Shown here piece by piece: positions 9,940 to 14,674 of a stretch of 64,000 bases of DNA (positions are counted from its first letter, which is position 1; every line of letters starts with the position of its first letter). The stretch covers positions 3,919 through 67,918 of the forward strand of contig NKIR01000014.1 in assembly GCA_002255985.1 (NCBI GenBank), read 5' to 3'. This stretch comes from Sphingomonadaceae bacterium PASS1 (GTDB taxonomy: Bacteria > Pseudomonadota > Alphaproteobacteria > Sphingomonadales > Sphingomonadaceae). The notes under the pieces were generated by a model that was not told the DNA's origin, searched no databases, and saw only the letters and a list, made by a program, of their open reading frames with translations. The position numbers were made by a program, and so were the translations under genes.

Positions 9940-10473
9940 ATGGTGCGTACCACTCGACGAAATGACTGGGGTTTTCCCCGCTGGCGCGGCTACGGAAGCA
10001 GCAGCGAAGCGCAACAGGTGCGTCTGTGCGACCGCTATGGTTGTACCAAAGCGGGAAACTGCCCCGCACCGAAATCGCCCAACAGTCCGGACCGCTGGAT
10101 GTTCTGTGAAGAACATGCCGGAGAGTATAATCGTGGTTGGGATTATTTCGAAGGCTTAACCAAAGAAGAAGCTGATTTGCGCGAAGCGAACGAGCGCAGG
10201 GATTTTTCGGGCTATAAAGAATCTGCGCATTATGGCTGGGCCGGGTCCGGCGACGGCAGCAGAAGCCGTGATGAGATGCATGCGCTCGACATTTTGGGCC
10301 TTGAAAGCGACTCCACTTTTGATGACGCCAAAAAAGCCTGGCGCAAAATCGCTAAGGAAACACACCCAGACGTAAACCCAGGTAACGCCGATGCTGCTAA
10401 GGCGTTTCAGGCGGGGCAGGCAGCGTATGATGTGCTTCGCGTTGCTGAAGAACGTCGCGAGTGGCGTGGTTAA
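9940..10473 (+). CDS. J-domain protein with N-terminal Cys/His module
   Basis: C-terminal DnaJ domain with HPD; N-terminal CDRYGC...CPAPK...FCEEH. Confidence 0.85.
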   Translation: MVRTTRRNDWGFPRWRGYGSSSEAQQVRLCDRYGCTKAGNCPAPKSPNSPDRWMFCEEHAGEYNRGWDYFEGLTKEEADLREANERRDFSGYKESAHYGWAGSGDGSRSRDEMHALDILGLESDSTFDDAKKAWRKIAKETHPDVNPGNADAAKAFQAGQAAYDVLRVAEERREWRG

Positions 10474-10513
10474 CAAGGTTGCGCGAACGAAATTGTAAGC
10501 GCAGACGGCGCGC

Positions 10514-10906
10514 GTGATTCGAACTTTTTCGCCTTTCCGGAATATAGCTGCAGCAATGATACTGCTGGCGCTGGTTTTGCGAGTCATCGTTCCGTCGGGC
10601 TTTATGCTGTCCTCGGAGCGTGGCTTTGCGTTGACCATCTGTACGGGAATGGACACCCAGACCGTCTGGATGGACAAGTCGGGTAAGCTGTACAAGGAAG
10701 ACCCATCAAAAGGTAAGTCGGTTGAGCATCAACCTTGTGCCTTTGCGGGAACAGCGATGGTGGCGGATTTTCTGTCCGCTGGTTCCTGCGTCGCGCTCGC
10801 ACCTGTTGCGCTTGCCATTCCTGTTTTTGCCAAACACGAAATATCCGTTGGCGCTGGCCTCGCTGCGCCGCCGCCGCCTGCGATTGGTCCGCCTTCTTAC
10901 GTCTAA
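10514..10906 (+). CDS. DUF2946 family (CruR-like) upstream ORF
   Basis: Signal/TM LALVLRVIVPSGFM, TICTG, HQPCAFAG, C-terminal APPPPAIGPP; lies directly upstream of a TBDR. Confidence 0.8.
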   Translation: MIRTFSPFRNIAAAMILLALVLRVIVPSGFMLSSERGFALTICTGMDTQTVWMDKSGKLYKEDPSKGKSVEHQPCAFAGTAMVADFLSAGSCVALAPVALAIPVFAKHEISVGAGLAAPPPPAIGPPSYV

Positions 10907-10957
10907 ACTACAGGGCTGCATTGCGGCCTATCTCTCGTTTAGATTTAGGAAAATATC

Positions 10958-12931
10958 ATGAAATTCTTGTCCATTTTGCGCGCGTCTGCTGCGTGCACCT
11001 TCATTGTCATCATTACCCCCGCCGCTGCTGAAGAGGCTTCTGACGCCACGATTATTGTCACCGGCCGTGCAGCCTCTGACGAAGCCGAAATATCGGCAAA
11101 CAACACCGCAGGCGGCACGGACGTCGTTAGCCACGAAGATTATGCAGATAAGACTATTGTGTCTTTGCGTGATACCTTGGCCTTTTCGCCGGGGGTGTAT
11201 ACCCAGCCGCGCTTTGGGCAGGAGGTCCGCATTTCCTTTCGCGGTTCGGGTCTTTCGCGCGGGTTCCATATGCGCGGACTAACTTTGTTGCAGGATGGCA
11301 TTCCCATCAATCTCGCCGACGACAATGGCGACTTTCAAGAACTTGAACCCACATTCTTCGACCATTTAGAGGTATATCGCGGCGCTAACGCGTTTAGGTT
11401 CGGTTCCGGCACATTGGGCGGCGCAATCAACGGTGTTACGCCCACCGGTGACAATGCTGCGGGTCTTTACCTTCGCGGTGATGTTGGCAGCTCTGACTTT
11501 TATCGCGGCTTGGCGTCTTTTGGCGTGGGTGATGGCGACGCCAATGCTTGGGCATCGATTAGCGCCGATAGCCACAAGGGGGATCGCCAACACGCCCAGC
11601 GGAACTCAATTCGCTTTAACGGCAATGTTGGGCTTAGGATTTCGGGTGTCGTGTCGACGCGATTCTACGCAAGCGCGACGACACTTAATCAGGAATTGCC
11701 CGGTGCACTGACCCGCGCGACGGCTTTGTCTGCACCACGAACTGGTAATTTTGTCGGGGATCAGGCACGCGATATCAATTCGGTACGTATCCAGAACCGG
11801 ACCCGTTTCGCCTGGGGCAATAGCCGTCTGGATGTAGGCGCGTTCTTGAATGCCAAAGAATTATATCACCCGATTTTCCAGGTTGTTGATCAGGAGTCGA
11901 CCGATCGCGGCGTGTTCGCCCGTTATGACCGTGAAGGCGATATATGGAGCTTTACCCTTGGCGGAGAGTCCCGTTGGGGAACAATTGACGCAAAGCGCTT
12001 TATCAATGTGAACGGCAAGCGTGGAGCGCTTAACTTCGATGCCGACCAGACGGCCCGGACGTCGAACATTTATGGAGAGCTGCGTGCAACGCCGGTTGTG
12101 GGCGTTACGGTCATAGCAGGCGGTATATATGCCGATGGTTTCCGAAAGCAGGTTCAAATAGTTCCGTCTGCCGCAACGGGTGCAGCGTCGTTCGACGCTT
12201 TCTCGCCCAAATTTGGCGTCCTCTGGGAACCGTCTGAAGACGTCCAAATTTTTGCCAATTATAGCAAGTCCACAGAATTCCCGACCTTCGTTGAACTCGC
12301 ACAAATTGCGGCGTTCGTTCCTGTAAAGGAACAAACAGCGTGGACAGCAGAAATCGGAACACGCGGGAAACTGGGATGGGCAAGCTGGGATGTTGCCCTG
12401 TATCGCGCCGCCATCAAACGCGAAATGCTGCAATTTACCGTCGGGCAGGACATTCCAGCGACAACGTTCAACTCTGATAAAACACGGCATCAGGGCATCG
12501 AGGCCGCCTTTAGCGCAGCGCCGACCGATTGGCTGCGCTTCCGGCAAATCTGGCAATATTCCGACTTCCGCTTTGTCGCTGATGCCCAATATGGCAACAA
12601 CCGTCTGCCTGTGGTGCCCAGACATGTCCTGCGGTCGGAGCTTCGACTTGGGAGCGATGATTTGCATATTGCACCGAATGTTGAATGGGTCCCGCAGGGT
12701 GCATGGGCAGACTATCGGAACACGACACGCACGACAGGCTATACCCTGTTAGGCTTATCTTTCGGCGCGCGCGTTATGGCGGGGGTTGATCTATTTCTTG
12801 ATGCGCGGAACCTGATTGGAGAGAAAGCCATTGGCGACGTGTCGGCCGCTATCCTTGCCTCCGCAGCATCCGCCATTTACTATCCGGTTGAACGCCGCGC
12901 CATCTACGGCGGCGTTCGTGCGCGGTTTTAG
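10958..12931 (+). CDS. TonB-dependent receptor (probable metal uptake)
   Basis: TIIVTG box, ISFRGSG...LLQDGIP plug, EVYRGANA, C-terminal RARF. Confidence 0.92.
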   Translation: MKFLSILRASAACTFIVIITPAAAEEASDATIIVTGRAASDEAEISANNTAGGTDVVSHEDYADKTIVSLRDTLAFSPGVYTQPRFGQEVRISFRGSGLSRGFHMRGLTLLQDGIPINLADDNGDFQELEPTFFDHLEVYRGANAFRFGSGTLGGAINGVTPTGDNAAGLYLRGDVGSSDFYRGLASFGVGDGDANAWASISADSHKGDRQHAQRNSIRFNGNVGLRISGVVSTRFYASATTLNQELPGALTRATALSAPRTGNFVGDQARDINSVRIQNRTRFAWGNSRLDVGAFLNAKELYHPIFQVVDQESTDRGVFARYDREGDIWSFTLGGESRWGTIDAKRFINVNGKRGALNFDADQTARTSNIYGELRATPVVGVTVIAGGIYADGFRKQVQIVPSAATGAASFDAFSPKFGVLWEPSEDVQIFANYSKSTEFPTFVELAQIAAFVPVKEQTAWTAEIGTRGKLGWASWDVALYRAAIKREMLQFTVGQDIPATTFNSDKTRHQGIEAAFSAAPTDWLRFRQIWQYSDFRFVADAQYGNNRLPVVPRHVLRSELRLGSDDLHIAPNVEWVPQGAWADYRNTTRTTGYTLLGLSFGARVMAGVDLFLDARNLIGEKAIGDVSAAILASAASAIYYPVERRAIYGGVRARF

Positions 12932-12941
12932 GAGGCCAGAT

Positions 12942-14282
12942 ATGGAGAATACGTCTTTCTACCGCACGATCTGGCGTTGGCATTTCTATGCCTCGCTCTT
13001 CGTCATGCCTCTCATACTCGTGCTTGCCACAACAGGTGCCATCTATCTGTTTAAGCCGCAATTGGACCATTGGGAAGAGCGCGCATTTACGAACCTGCCG
13101 ACTGTACAGCCGGTGTCCCCCAATGTGCAGTTGGCCGCTGTAATGGCAGCCAATCCAGGTGCGCAATTCCAAAGCTATCGCTTGCCCGAACATGCAGGCG
13201 ATGCCGCCATGATACATATTGGCCTGGCCGACGGCCAATCCATGCGCGACGTCTATGTTTCGCCGCACGGCAAAGTGTTGGGCAGCATCGATCCGGAAAG
13301 CCGGATATCCGCCACCGTGTCGCGTATACATGGTTCGCTGTTGATCGGCAAAATGGGCGATTGGATTGTTGAGCTGGCGGCGTGCTGGGCGATCGTGATG
13401 ATACTGACCGGTTTGTATATGTGGTGGCCGCGCGGGCAGCGCTTGGCCGGTGTCGTGTGGCCCCGGTTGGGGAAGGGCAATCGCGTGTTTCTGCGTGACC
13501 TACATGCGGTCACTGGTTTCTGGGTTTCAGGGCTGGCGCTTGTTTTGTTGACCACTGGATTGCCTTGGGCGAGCGTCTGGGGTGATGCTTTCCGAATTGC
13601 ACGGGCTGAATTAGGCCTCGTTCAGGGCACGCAAGATTGGAAAACGGGCAGTGCCGCACCCCATGCCGAACATGACCATGATGCAATGATGAAAATGCCG
13701 GCTGCCGAGATTCCAGTGGTCGGTTTGGCAGACATAGTGGCCAAGGCGAAGGCGGAAAGGCTGGCACATCCGGTATTGGTGAAACCGCCGGGTGCGCCTG
13801 AGCGTTTCGGCCCTCCTACGCCGATGGCTTGGAAGGTTAAATCGGAGGCACAGAACCGGCCATTGAACCGCGAGGTCATATTTGATGCCGCAACGGGCAA
13901 TGAGCTGTCTCGGAAAGGCTTTGCCGACAAACATGTCATTGATCGTGCCGTCAATTATGGAATTGCTTGGCATGAGGGCCAGCTTTTTGGCTGGATTAAT
14001 CAGCTTGTTGGAGTGCTTACAGCAGTTGCACTGAACGTCTTGGTAATATCAGGCTTTCTGATGTGGCGACGGCGCAAGCCGGATGATGCGCTCGGCGCAC
14101 CGCCCGTTGCTGCGGTGCCACCGAAAATGCGCGGGGTTGTGATGATCATCGGTGTCATGGCGTTGCTATTGCCATTGCTTGGCGCATCGCTAATCGGGCT
14201 GTGGTTGTTCGACCGGCTGCTGCTGCCCCGCTTGCCTGCACTTGCGATGTGGCTTGGGTTGCGTCCGGCTCAGCCGGCGTAA
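12942..14282 (+). CDS. PepSY-associated TM-helix domain protein
   Basis: FYRTIWRWHFYA, RIHGSLL, DLHAVTGFW, AWHEG motifs; His/Met-rich HAEHDHDAMM; GGAGG RBS before ATG 12942. Confidence 0.9.
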   Translation: MENTSFYRTIWRWHFYASLFVMPLILVLATTGAIYLFKPQLDHWEERAFTNLPTVQPVSPNVQLAAVMAANPGAQFQSYRLPEHAGDAAMIHIGLADGQSMRDVYVSPHGKVLGSIDPESRISATVSRIHGSLLIGKMGDWIVELAACWAIVMILTGLYMWWPRGQRLAGVVWPRLGKGNRVFLRDLHAVTGFWVSGLALVLLTTGLPWASVWGDAFRIARAELGLVQGTQDWKTGSAAPHAEHDHDAMMKMPAAEIPVVGLADIVAKAKAERLAHPVLVKPPGAPERFGPPTPMAWKVKSEAQNRPLNREVIFDAATGNELSRKGFADKHVIDRAVNYGIAWHEGQLFGWINQLVGVLTAVALNVLVISGFLMWRRRKPDDALGAPPVAAVPPKMRGVVMIIGVMALLLPLLGASLIGLWLFDRLLLPRLPALAMWLGLRPAQPA

Positions 14283-14674
14283 CGCGCTGCCGTCTCGCGG
14301 ATAAGCGAGATCATATTGGGAATGCCTTGCGTCCGGTTCGAGCTTAACTGATTTTTGAGGTCGAACGGCGCAAGGGCGTTCTCGATATCTGTTTTCAGAA
14401 TATCGGCGGCGTTTTTATGCTCAACCGTTTTAAGGACCAGCGCGATGATGCCTTTGGTAATCGCGGCGTTGCTGTCGGCCAGAAATGTGAGTTCGCTATC
14501 TGCGATCACGGGATAGACCCATACGCTTGCTGAACATCCACGAACCAGCGTCGCATCGGTTTTCAACGCGGCGGGCATTTCGGGTAATTCGCGGCCGAGG
14601 TCGATAAGCAACCGATAGCGGTCATCAGCCTCAAGAAATGCATATTCTTCTGTAATGTCGGCAAATGTTGTCAT
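14270..14674 (-). CDS. sufE: SufE family Fe-S assembly sulfur acceptor
   Basis: RYRLLIDLG, VRGCSASVW, ADSNAAITKG, LSSNRTQG. Confidence 0.92.
   Translation of the reverse strand: MTTFADITEEYAFLEADDRYRLLIDLGRELPEMPAALKTDATLVRGCSASVWVYPVIADSELTFLADSNAAITKGIIALVLKTVEHKNAADILKTDIENALAPFDLKNQLSSNRTQGIPNMISLIRETAARYAG

What the first reader, a model, noticed from the sequence alone, without database searches (positions are those of the whole stretch)
10514..14282. CruR-like uORF with a non-canonical IGPP tail ahead of a TBDR-PepSY operon
Seen: a DUF2946-type ORF (TM, TICTG, HQPCAF) ends APPPPAIGPPSYV, 51 nt before a TBDR and a His/Met-rich PepSY-TM gene. Established: the Bordetella DUF2946 protein CruR regulates a downstream TBDR in response to copper, using CxxC and a RAPP ribosome-arrest motif. 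Here the Arg of RAPP/RGPP is replaced by Ile inside a polyproline run, and CxxC is reduced to CxxA. Inference: a variant arrest peptide, possibly EF-P dependent, with altered metal specificity.
Basis: partly seen in the sequence, partly recalled or inferred. Interest (0 to 1): 0.65.

Follow-up and report, generated by a model that had tools for sequence, protein, structure and literature searches.

The report
Arg-less stalling leader gating TonB receptor
A small leader gene of the known metal-sensing CruR/CutF (DUF2946) family sits before an outer-membrane import operon; its last codons base-pair with the next gene's ribosome-binding site, and its conserved proline-rich tail lacks the arginine that related stalling peptides need.

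Summary
ORF 10514-10906 (130 aa) ends GLAAPPPPAIGPPSYV, 51 nt before a TonB-dependent receptor and a PepSY_TM gene. Pfam's DUF2946 model misses it, but a profile built from sphingomonad DUF2946 proteins hits it at 71 bits. It keeps the family layout: an export signal, a Cys sensor exactly 45 residues before the xGPP motif, three residues and then stop, and first place in a TBDR/PepSY_TM operon.

Ile is a minority variant. In 146 motif-bearing 50%-identity representatives this position is Thr in 120, Ile in 10 and Arg in 8, always after an invariant GLAAPPPP.

This helix recurs in 57-59 of 67 distinct related loci and shows many compensatory changes.

The most likely mechanism is CutF/SecM-like. 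A ribosome paused at GPP covers the masking arm and frees the ribosome-binding site, and a metal (copper is the best guess) modulates the pause.

"Altered metal specificity" has no support: CxxA is the sphingomonad norm and a second invariant Cys exists.

This is a variant of a known kind, and this scan has seen similar leaders before on other DNA.

The parts
10477..10513 (+). Promoter-like conserved block directly upstream of the GTG (TTGCGC-type -35 and CATAGG-type -10 in relatives). The transcript may have a very short leader or none.
   Evidence: In the alignment of 30 Sphingorhabdus loci, conservation starts about 38 nt before the GTG, even in three loci with a different upstream gene (L023, L032, L033). 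The consensus scan found no sigma-70 match. There is no Zur-box-like site. This part is inference only.
10514..10906 (+). Leader gene (uORF) of 130 aa, a divergent DUF2946/CruR/CutF-family peptide.
   Evidence: There is one copy in the genome.
10544..10603 (+). N-terminal hydrophobic segment (about residues 11-30) after Arg3 and Arg9, taken as an export signal or signal anchor.
   Evidence: The Kyte-Doolittle 15-residue window mean is 1.6-2.8. Pro27 and Gly29 are invariant in the clade.
10640..10642 (+). Cys43 codon (TICTG), invariant in the clade; proposed first ligand of the sensor.
   Evidence: Invariant in A1 and A3. It usually lies 29-33 residues before the second Cys.
10727..10750 (+). 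HQPCAFAG: His72 and the invariant Cys75, equivalent to the CXXC of CruR with the second Cys replaced by Ala.
   Evidence: There are 45 intervening residues to Ile124, which is the modal spacing in the clade.
10769..10831 (+). Second hydrophobic segment (about residues 86-106). It would still lie inside or just leaving the ribosomal tunnel when the ribosome is at GPP.
   Evidence: Hydropathy. The sequence varies among homologues.
10856..10894 (+). Proposed arrest module GLAAPPPPAIGPP (PPPP at 10868-10879; IGPP at 10883-10894).
   Evidence: G-L-A-A-P-P-P-P and the two Pro of xGPP are invariant in 77 loci, Gly of xGPP in 75 (Ala in 2), and each uses all four synonymous codons. It is also conserved in 146 of 150 representatives. 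Three residues follow xGPP in 132 of 145.
10894..10908 (+). 5' arm of the masking helix: the last base of Pro127, then Ser-Tyr-Val codons, TAA and 2 nt.
   Evidence: covariation.
10913..10929 (+). Inner GC-rich hairpin (GGGCTGC-ATT-GCGGCCT) enclosed by the masking helix.
   Evidence: A hairpin is present at this place in nearly all related loci. It is terminator-like by a simple rule in 22 of 66 distinct intergenic regions, but not in the window.
10937..10951 (+). 3' arm of the masking helix. It contains the receptor's Shine-Dalgarno AGGAA (10947-10951), 6 nt before the ATG at 10958.
10958..12931 (+). TonB-dependent receptor, 657 aa.
   Evidence: Plug and beta-barrel Pfam domains. The nearest solved structures are YncD and PqqU. 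No NCBIfam equivalog reaches its cut-off.
12942..14282 (+). PepSY_TM membrane protein, 446 aa from the ATG, with the conserved HAEHDHDAMMKM motif at 13662-13697.
   Evidence: PF03929 at E 1e-64. The motif is kept in orthologues down to about 57% identity and is expanded in a 33%-identical paralogue.

Best explanation
The ORF is a cis-acting regulatory leader peptide of the DUF2946 (CruR/CutF) family. It controls the downstream TonB-dependent receptor and PepSY_TM genes.

Proposed steps:
1. The nascent chain is targeted to the membrane by its N-terminal signal. This exposes the loop that carries Cys43 and His72/Cys75.
2. The ribosome slows on the invariant GLAAPPPP-x-(T/I)-GPP tail and pauses with Pro126 in the P site and Pro127 in the A site.
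3. In that position the ribosome covers the next 12-15 nt. These are the 5' arm (10894-10908) of a helix that otherwise sequesters the receptor's Shine-Dalgarno sequence (10947-10951). A long pause therefore opens the ribosome-binding site and switches the operon on. Fast completion lets the helix re-form and keeps the operon off.
4. Metal binding or redox chemistry at the two Cys, 45 residues from the pause site, changes the pulling or folding force on the nascent chain and so the length of the pause. For an uptake operon, metal sufficiency should shorten the pause, as in CruR.

Shown here: homology, geometry, conservation of the peptide at the amino-acid level, and the covarying masking helix. 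Inferred: the pause itself, its dependence on EF-P, the direction of the response, and the metal. Copper is the best guess, at roughly even odds.
For: Family and geometry:
- A profile of PF11162-matching sphingomonad ORFs hits the ORF at 71 bits, and 61 of 112 clade members match PF11162.
- IGPP lies 3 residues before the stop and 45 residues after the Cys motif. These are the same figures as CruR (PMC9426467) and CutF (PMC9973294). They hold clade-wide: spacing is 44-46 in 98 of 111, and 3 residues follow xGPP in 132 of 145.

Selection on the peptide:
- GLAAPPPP and the two Pro of xGPP are invariant in 77 loci, its Gly in 75, while all synonymous codons are used.

Masking helix:
- The minimum-free-energy fold of the window pairs 10894-10908 with 10937-10951.
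- In 67 distinct related regions, the stop codon pairs with the SD window in 57 and the SD core pairs with the uORF end in 59.
- Own-pair duplex energy is -13.6 kcal/mol against -8.7 +/- 0.42 for permuted partners, with 0 of 20000 permutations as low. Windows shifted upstream give -7.2 to -8.1.
- On a covariance-model alignment, 92.2% of cells are paired against 82.9% in shuffles. Eight of 10 pairs change on both sides. There are 79 compensatory cells against 23.8 +/- 9.4. In all three measures 0 of 500 shuffles reach the observed value. Slid controls give 16-49%.

Context:
- Downstream genes are TBDRs or PepSY_TM in nearly all loci.
- Precedents: CutF stalling melts an SD-masking stem-loop and involves EF-P. 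CruR arrest has been shown by toeprinting, with the third codon of RAPP in the P site and the fourth in the A site (PMC12992588).
Against: - No experiment bears on this locus, and RNA and read data were not available.
- The Arg of RAPP/RGPP is irreplaceable in ApcA, ApdA, ApdP and SecM, and R139A abolishes CruR arrest in vitro (PMC12992588). An Ile/Thr-GPP tail therefore cannot use that mechanism as it stands.
- Polyproline pauses are normally resolved quickly by EF-P.
- CutF's Pro-rich tail on its own did not give a detectable arrest product in a LepB reporter (PMC9973294).
- Any ribosome that terminates at the stop codon also opens the helix, so plain translational coupling could explain the RNA design without a regulated pause.
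- The metal is unknown. DUF2946 genes also head Zn/Cd efflux operons (PMC4176598) and Ni/Co-linked clusters. The receptor is not CrtA-like in length.
Confidence: 0.6

Rival explanations
1. Plain translational coupling. The helix only makes receptor translation depend on translation of the upstream ORF. That ORF encodes a functional small membrane protein, for example a metal-binding accessory of the receptor/PepSY_TM system. There is no regulated arrest, and the conserved tail serves the mature protein.
For: A terminating ribosome also covers the 5' arm, which follows from the geometry seen. The ORF has two hydrophobic segments, like a small membrane protein. The Arg that the RAPP class needs for arrest is absent. 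The loop residues (positions 33-79) are highly conserved within the genus.
Against: The tail is the most conserved part across the whole clade, while residues 80-112 drift. It sits at a fixed 3 codons from the stop and 45 residues from the Cys, a constraint that makes sense on the ribosome and not in a folded protein. Homologues CruR and CutF act in cis and are degraded or undetectable as proteins.
Confidence: 0.2
2. Transcription attenuation, either CruR-like and Rho-dependent or through an intrinsic terminator. The ribosome's position at the end of the leader decides whether RNA polymerase reads into the receptor gene. The SD masking is secondary.
For: CruR works through Rho. The leader's 3' part and the spacer have C>G skew of -0.13 to -0.18. 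The inner GC hairpin is followed by a T-rich tract and passes a simple terminator rule in 22 of 66 distinct related intergenic regions.
Against: The window's own hairpin does not pass the terminator rule. The spacer is 51 nt and mostly structured, against 162 nt in B. pertussis. The covariation lies in the outer helix that includes the SD, which a pure attenuator does not need.
Confidence: 0.12
3. The tail is a constitutive EF-P-dependent slow-down. It couples operon output to EF-P activity or general translation status and senses no metal.
For: PPPP and GPP are polyproline-type pause motifs. CutF output changes in an efp mutant regardless of copper.
Against: Two invariant Cys lie at a fixed distance from the motif. 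The family is consistently linked to metal transport operons.
Confidence: 0.08

Closest known systems
CruR (Bp2923) of Bordetella pertussis, DUF2946/PF11162; cruR-crtA(bfrG)-crpH operon (PMC9426467, PMC12914433, PMC13038864)
   Same: It is a small exported leader that comes first in an operon with a TonB-dependent transporter and a PepSY_TM protein. Its Cys motif lies 45 residues before an xxPP motif that sits 3 residues before the stop. Arrest means the operon is on.
   Different: CruR has CXXC and RAPP with an essential Arg, a 162-nt spacer, and Rho-dependent termination. Here there is a single Cys in CAFA plus a distal invariant Cys, Ile in place of Arg preceded by PPPP, a 51-nt spacer with an SD-masking helix, and a 657-aa receptor outside the CrtA length range (707-911 aa). 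Pfam's model does not match.
CutF of Rhodobacter capsulatus (cutFOG; PMC9973294, PMC8456105, bioRxiv 10.1101/2025.02.05.636593)
   Same: It is a DUF2946 member with an Arg-less proline-rich tail (PEPEGPPPRL) that is sensitive to EF-P. It has a short spacer whose stem-loop hides the SD of the next gene and is opened by the paused ribosome. The distance from sensor to tail is 45 residues.
   Different: CutF has CxxxC, controls a detoxifying multicopper oxidase, and copper lengthens its pause. Here the target is an uptake-type operon, so the opposite sign is expected. The tail is a longer two-part motif (PPPP-x-T/I-GPP). The masking arm is made of the leader's own last codons and stop codon.
RAPP/RGPP arrest peptides ApdA, ApdP, ApcA and SecM (PMC10951233, PMC12992588, PMC7897499)
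   Same: The motif is a C-terminal x-(A/G)-P-P in a small secreted or membrane peptide upstream of a regulated gene. The pause puts the third codon in the P site and the fourth in the A site.
   Different: In those peptides Arg cannot be replaced and the arrest resists EF-P. Here the position is Ile (Thr in most relatives), so a different, probably polyproline-assisted, mechanism is needed.

Membership tests
DUF2946 (PF11162) / CruR-CutF leader peptides | Match to the Pfam PF11162 model above its gathering score | tested here: not met
   There is no hit at E<=10 on the protein and none in six frames of the genome.
DUF2946 (PF11162) / CruR-CutF leader peptides | Sequence homology to proteins that do match PF11162 | tested here: met
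   An HMM of 14 PF11162-matching sphingomonad ORFs gives 71 bits, E 6e-24, over the full length. Of 112 clade members, 61 match PF11162.
DUF2946 (PF11162) / CruR-CutF leader peptides | N-terminal export signal or N-in signal anchor | tested here: met
   A hydrophobic segment at residues 11-30 follows Arg3 and Arg9. This rests on hydropathy only; no dedicated predictor was available.
DUF2946 (PF11162) / CruR-CutF leader peptides | CXXC (CruR) or CxxxC (CutF) metal-binding motif | tested here: not met
   The motif is CAFA, with a single Cys75. None of the 14 sphingomonad DUF2946 ORFs read has CxxC. Cys43 is invariant and may be the second ligand.
DUF2946 (PF11162) / CruR-CutF leader peptides | Proline motif within the last 15 residues, about 3 residues before the stop | tested here: met
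   IGPP occupies residues 124-127 of 130. Three residues follow in 132 of 145 relatives.
DUF2946 (PF11162) / CruR-CutF leader peptides | Spacing of 45 +/- 2 residues between the Cys motif and the proline motif | tested here: met
   The window has 45 intervening residues. The clade mode is 45, and 98 of 111 fall at 44-46.
DUF2946 (PF11162) / CruR-CutF leader peptides | First gene of an operon with metal-transport genes (TBDT and/or PepSY_TM) | tested here: met
   for the window; for 80 related loci.
DUF2946 (PF11162) / CruR-CutF leader peptides | Ribosome arrest at the tail, and a metal-dependent effect on the downstream gene | not testable with these tools
   This needs toeprinting, reporters or Ribo-seq.
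RAPP/RGPP class of arrest peptides | Arg at the first position of R-(A/G)-P-P (irreplaceable) | tested here: not met
   The window has Ile124. In the clade the position is Thr in 120, Ile in 10 and Arg in 8 of 146. The requirement is documented in PMC12992588.
CutF-type translational switch | Stem-loop next to the leader's end that sequesters the SD of the next gene | tested here: met
   plus covariation.
CruR-type Rho-dependent switch | Long unstructured C-rich spacer or rut site with Rho-dependent termination | tested here: inconclusive
   The spacer is 51 nt and mostly base-paired. C>G skew is modest. Rho dependence is not testable here.
CrtA subfamily of TonB-dependent copper transporters | Length of 707-911 aa, membership of the CrtA sequence cluster, and the conserved binding-site residues including the invariant His | tested here: inconclusive
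   At 657 aa the receptor is outside the stated range. The nearest solved structures are YncD and PqqU. No CrtA sequence was at hand, so cluster membership and residues were not tested.
CrpH subfamily of PepSY_TM proteins | PF03929 match, membership of the CrpH sequence cluster, and heme-ligand His residues | tested here: inconclusive
   PF03929 matches at E 1e-64, with weak cytochrome-b561-like hits on the TM region. Cluster membership was not tested.

The most novel reading that the evidence does not exclude
GLAAPPPP-x-(Thr/Ile)-GPP-xxx-stop is a distinct, Arg-independent class of programmed arrest sequence. An invariant polyproline block in the upper tunnel replaces the Arg of RAPP/RGPP. 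This would give a tunable, EF-P-sensitive and metal-gated pause whose footprint ends exactly on an anti-Shine-Dalgarno arm written in the leader's own last codons. The class would be used by most Sphingomonadaceae to gate TonB-dependent uptake.
Probability: 0.35. Interest if true: 0.6.

Novelty: new variant of a known kind. Interest (0 to 1): 0.42.

Why it matters
The DUF2946 leaders CruR and CutF are the only characterised cases in which a nascent peptide senses a transition metal and reports it through ribosome pausing. How the pause is made and released is still open.

This clade keeps every geometric constant of the family but has lost the Arg that is irreplaceable in RAPP-type arrest. It gains an invariant PPPP block instead. 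That makes it a natural experiment on which parts of the motif do the stalling.

The covarying helix gives a concrete, testable read-out: SD unmasking. It also explains why the motif always sits three codons before the stop.

There is a practical point as well. Pfam's model finds the family in 35 of 151 sampled Sphingomonadaceae genomes, while a clade profile finds it in 98. Such leaders are therefore widely left unannotated in front of TonB-dependent receptors.

Tried and rejected
- Pfam and NCBIfam searches on the leader found no family.
- RNAalifold on a plain MAFFT alignment found no helix, because the 3' arms were out of register between subgroups. Counting a hand-placed helix on that alignment gave only 75% pairing. 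A covariance-model alignment solved this.
- I searched for a Zur-type operator upstream. Matches were at chance level and none lay in 10380-10513. No conserved dyad was seen in the upstream alignment.
- I tested an intrinsic terminator in the spacer. The window is not flagged, and only 22 of 66 related spacers pass a simple rule. I kept this as a minor rival.
- I checked whether the receptor is CrtA. No such match appeared among solved structures even at E<=10, and its length is outside the CrtA range.
- Supplements of the CutF and CruR papers were searched for this motif or genus. Nothing was found on TGPP or Sphingorhabdus, and only a few sphingomonads are listed.
- Model R1 did not hit the canonical RGPP-type sphingomonad loci. 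Folding them shows that several have the same stop-to-SD pairing with longer spacers.


Full report
**Observation.** The ORF at 10514-10906 (+) starts with GTG and encodes 130 residues ending GLAAPPPPAIGPPSYV. It contains TICTG (Cys43) and HQPCAFAG (His72, Cys75). Exactly 51 nt separate its stop from the ATG (10958) of a 657-aa TonB-dependent receptor with Plug and beta-barrel domains. A PepSY_TM gene follows (PF03929, E 1e-64). Its likely start is the ATG at 12942, and it carries HAEHDHDAMMKM.

**Is it DUF2946?** Pfam PF11162 does not match the protein even at E<=10, and it does not match the genome in six frames. I took the PF11162 matches found in 35 of 151 Sphingomonadaceae genomes, read their ORFs and built an HMM from 14 of them. 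That HMM hits the window ORF over its full length at 71 bits, E 6e-24. A profile search of 1.84 billion representative proteins found 1167 clusters at E<=1e-3 and 203 at E<=1e-10. Of 112 aligned members, 61 match PF11162. The ORF is therefore a divergent member that the curated model misses. A clade profile finds the family in 98 of 151 sampled Sphingomonadaceae genomes. The window's genome has one copy.

**Family geometry.** In CruR the CXXC is at 90-93 and RAPP at 139-142 of 145 residues. That gives 45 intervening residues and three residues after the motif, and changing the spacing by five abolishes copper control (PMC9426467). CutF has the same 45-residue distance (PMC9973294). In the window, Cys75 plus 3 to Ile124 leaves exactly 45 residues, and IGPP is followed by three residues. 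Across the representatives the spacing is 44-46 in 98 of 111 and three residues follow xGPP in 132 of 145. Hydropathy shows an N-terminal signal-like segment (residues 11-30) and a second hydrophobic segment (residues 86-106).

**The tail.** Among 150 representatives, 146 carry G-x-G-L-A-A-P-P-P-P-x-X-(G/A)-P-P, with X being Thr in 120, Ile in 10, Arg in 8, His in 5 and Gln in 2. Ile is therefore a minority state of a Thr-dominated clade that still contains Arg forms. In 77 genomic loci, G-L-A-A-P-P-P-P and the two Pro of xGPP are invariant and its Gly is kept in 75, although each position uses all four synonymous codons, so selection acts on the peptide. This matters because Arg is irreplaceable in ApcA, ApdA, ApdP and SecM, and R139A abolishes CruR arrest in vitro (PMC12992588). 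CutF has an Arg-less tail (PEPEGPPPRL) whose PPP is needed and whose pause is modulated by EF-P (bioRxiv 10.1101/2025.02.05.636593). The tail here resembles CutF in logic and CruR in position.

**The sensor.** None of the 14 sphingomonad DUF2946 ORFs read has CxxC. They have C-(A/P)-(F/Y), often preceded by His or Met. In the clade alignment the only invariant residues outside the tail are Pro27, Gly29, Cys43 and Cys75. The two Cys are usually 29-33 residues apart. CxxA is thus the lineage norm and a two-Cys site remains, so it gives no evidence for a change of metal.

**The RNA.** Folding 10840-10990 pairs the leader's last codons and stop (10894-10908) with 10937-10951. The latter holds the receptor's Shine-Dalgarno AGGAA, 6 nt before the ATG, and the helix encloses a GC hairpin at 10913-10929. 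I fetched 80 related loci from species genomes.

- The same design is visible by eye with different sequences, for example gatctga/tcagatc, cctctga/tcagagg, gtttgaac/gttcaaac and cctttgaaa/tttcaaagg.
- For 49 distinct 5' arms, the duplex energy with the locus's own SD region averages -13.6 kcal/mol against -8.7 +/- 0.42 for permuted partners (0 of 20000 permutations as low). Equal-length windows taken further upstream in the same leader give -7.2 to -8.1.
- In minimum-free-energy folds of 67 distinct regions, the stop codon pairs with the SD window in 57 and the SD core pairs with the leader's end in 59.
- RNAalifold on a MAFFT alignment failed because of register shifts.
- A covariance model built from ten in-register sequences aligned 68 matches. 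On that alignment 92.2% of cells pair, against 82.9% in shuffles and 16-49% when partners are slid. Eight of ten pairs change on both sides. There are 79 compensatory cells against 23.8 +/- 9.4. In each of these shuffle comparisons, 0 of 500 shuffles reach the observed value.
- That alignment is fitted to the structure, so the permutation test is the more independent control.
- Several canonical RGPP-type sphingomonad loci show the same pairing with longer spacers.

**Mechanism.** CruR toeprinting places the third codon of RAPP in the P site and the fourth in the A site. By analogy, a ribosome with Pro126 (10889-10891) in the P site extends about 12-15 nt further, to about 10904. That covers 11 of the 15 nt of the masking arm, and the remaining four A/U-rich pairs cannot hold the helix. 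The rule of three codons before the stop thus has a structural reason: it puts the pause footprint on the anti-SD arm. A pause at the upstream PPPP would not reach the arm, and it may act as a timer or as the tunnel element that replaces Arg. A long pause would free the SD and fast completion would re-mask it. This is the published CutF/SecM logic. For an uptake operon I infer that metal sufficiency shortens the pause, as in CruR. The sign of the response, the role of EF-P and the pause itself are all inferred.

**Which metal?** Three things favour copper. The characterised relatives CruR and CutF respond to copper. The operon type (TBDT plus PepSY_TM) matches cruR-crtA-crpH, which feeds heme-copper oxidases (PMC12914433, PMC13038864). 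The conserved HAEHDHxAMM motif in the PepSY_TM protein is expanded to HDHMDHMQHM in a paralogue. Three things count against certainty. The receptor is 657 aa, outside the CrtA range, and is nearest to YncD and PqqU. DUF2946 genes also head a Zn/Cd efflux operon in Caulobacter (PMC4176598). His-only clusters sit next to Ni/Co genes. No Zur-like operator lies upstream.

**Context.** In Sphingorhabdus the order leader-TBDR-PepSY_TM and the 51-nt spacer are fixed. Some loci have lost the receptor and join the leader directly to PepSY_TM with the helix intact. Of ten more distant loci tested, seven have a TBDR first, one has a PepSY_TM first, and two have an unassigned gene.

**Rivals.** The alternatives are plain translational coupling with a functional small membrane protein, attenuation (Rho-dependent, or through the inner hairpin, which looks terminator-like in 22 of 66 spacers but not in the window), and a constitutive EF-P gauge. 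None explains as well the combination of a tail conserved at the peptide level, fixed distances to both the stop and the Cys, and an SD-containing covarying helix.

**Novelty.** The kind is known. This scan's notes list 46 similar findings in at least 43 other genomes, including a TGPP variant and the stop-to-SD pairing. I reached the same points independently here. What is not in the papers I read is the Arg-less GLAAPPPP-x-(T/I)-GPP module as a large, coherent clade, or the covariation evidence for its masking helix. I rate it a new variant of a known kind, of moderate interest.

Noticed in passing
Sphingomonadaceae genomes: Pfam PF11162 detects the family in 35 of 151 sampled genomes, 24 of them above the cut-off. 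A profile of this clade detects it in 98 of 151. These leader genes are therefore widely unannotated. The other genome of the window's own genus that was sampled has none.
   Followed up: partly
L038, L045, L046, L049; L028, L039, L040: In four Sphingorhabdus loci the receptor gene is missing or reduced to a fragment. The leader, with the masking helix intact, sits directly before the orthologous PepSY_TM gene. In three others the leader precedes a 33%-identical PepSY_TM paralogue whose His/Met loop is expanded (HAEHK...HDHMDHMQHM).
   Followed up: partly
window 10477-10513: Conservation upstream of the leader starts only about 38 nt before the GTG, even where the upstream gene differs (L023, L032, L033). 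The block has a TTGCGC...CATAGG pattern, which suggests a promoter that gives a very short leader or a leaderless mRNA starting at GTG.
   Followed up: partly
window 10913-10929 and related loci: The inner GC hairpin between leader and receptor is followed by a T-rich tract. It passes a simple terminator rule in 22 of 66 related spacers (clearly in L053, L055 and L078) but not in the window. An attenuator layer is possible in some lineages.
   Followed up: partly
window 12816-12942: The ORF list starts the PepSY_TM gene at the TTG at 12816, overlapping the receptor's end by 116 nt. The ATG at 12942, 10 nt after the receptor's stop, fits the Pfam match and the homologues better.
   Followed up: partly
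window 14270-14674 (-): A SufE-domain gene converges on the PepSY_TM gene, and the two 3' ends overlap by 13 nt (14270-14282).
   Followed up: no
L002-L020: Canonical RPPxRGPP-type sphingomonad DUF2946 leaders have longer spacers (69-208 nt). Several still pair their stop region with the downstream SD (for example L009, L011, L012), so the design is not special to the Arg-less clade.
   Followed up: partly
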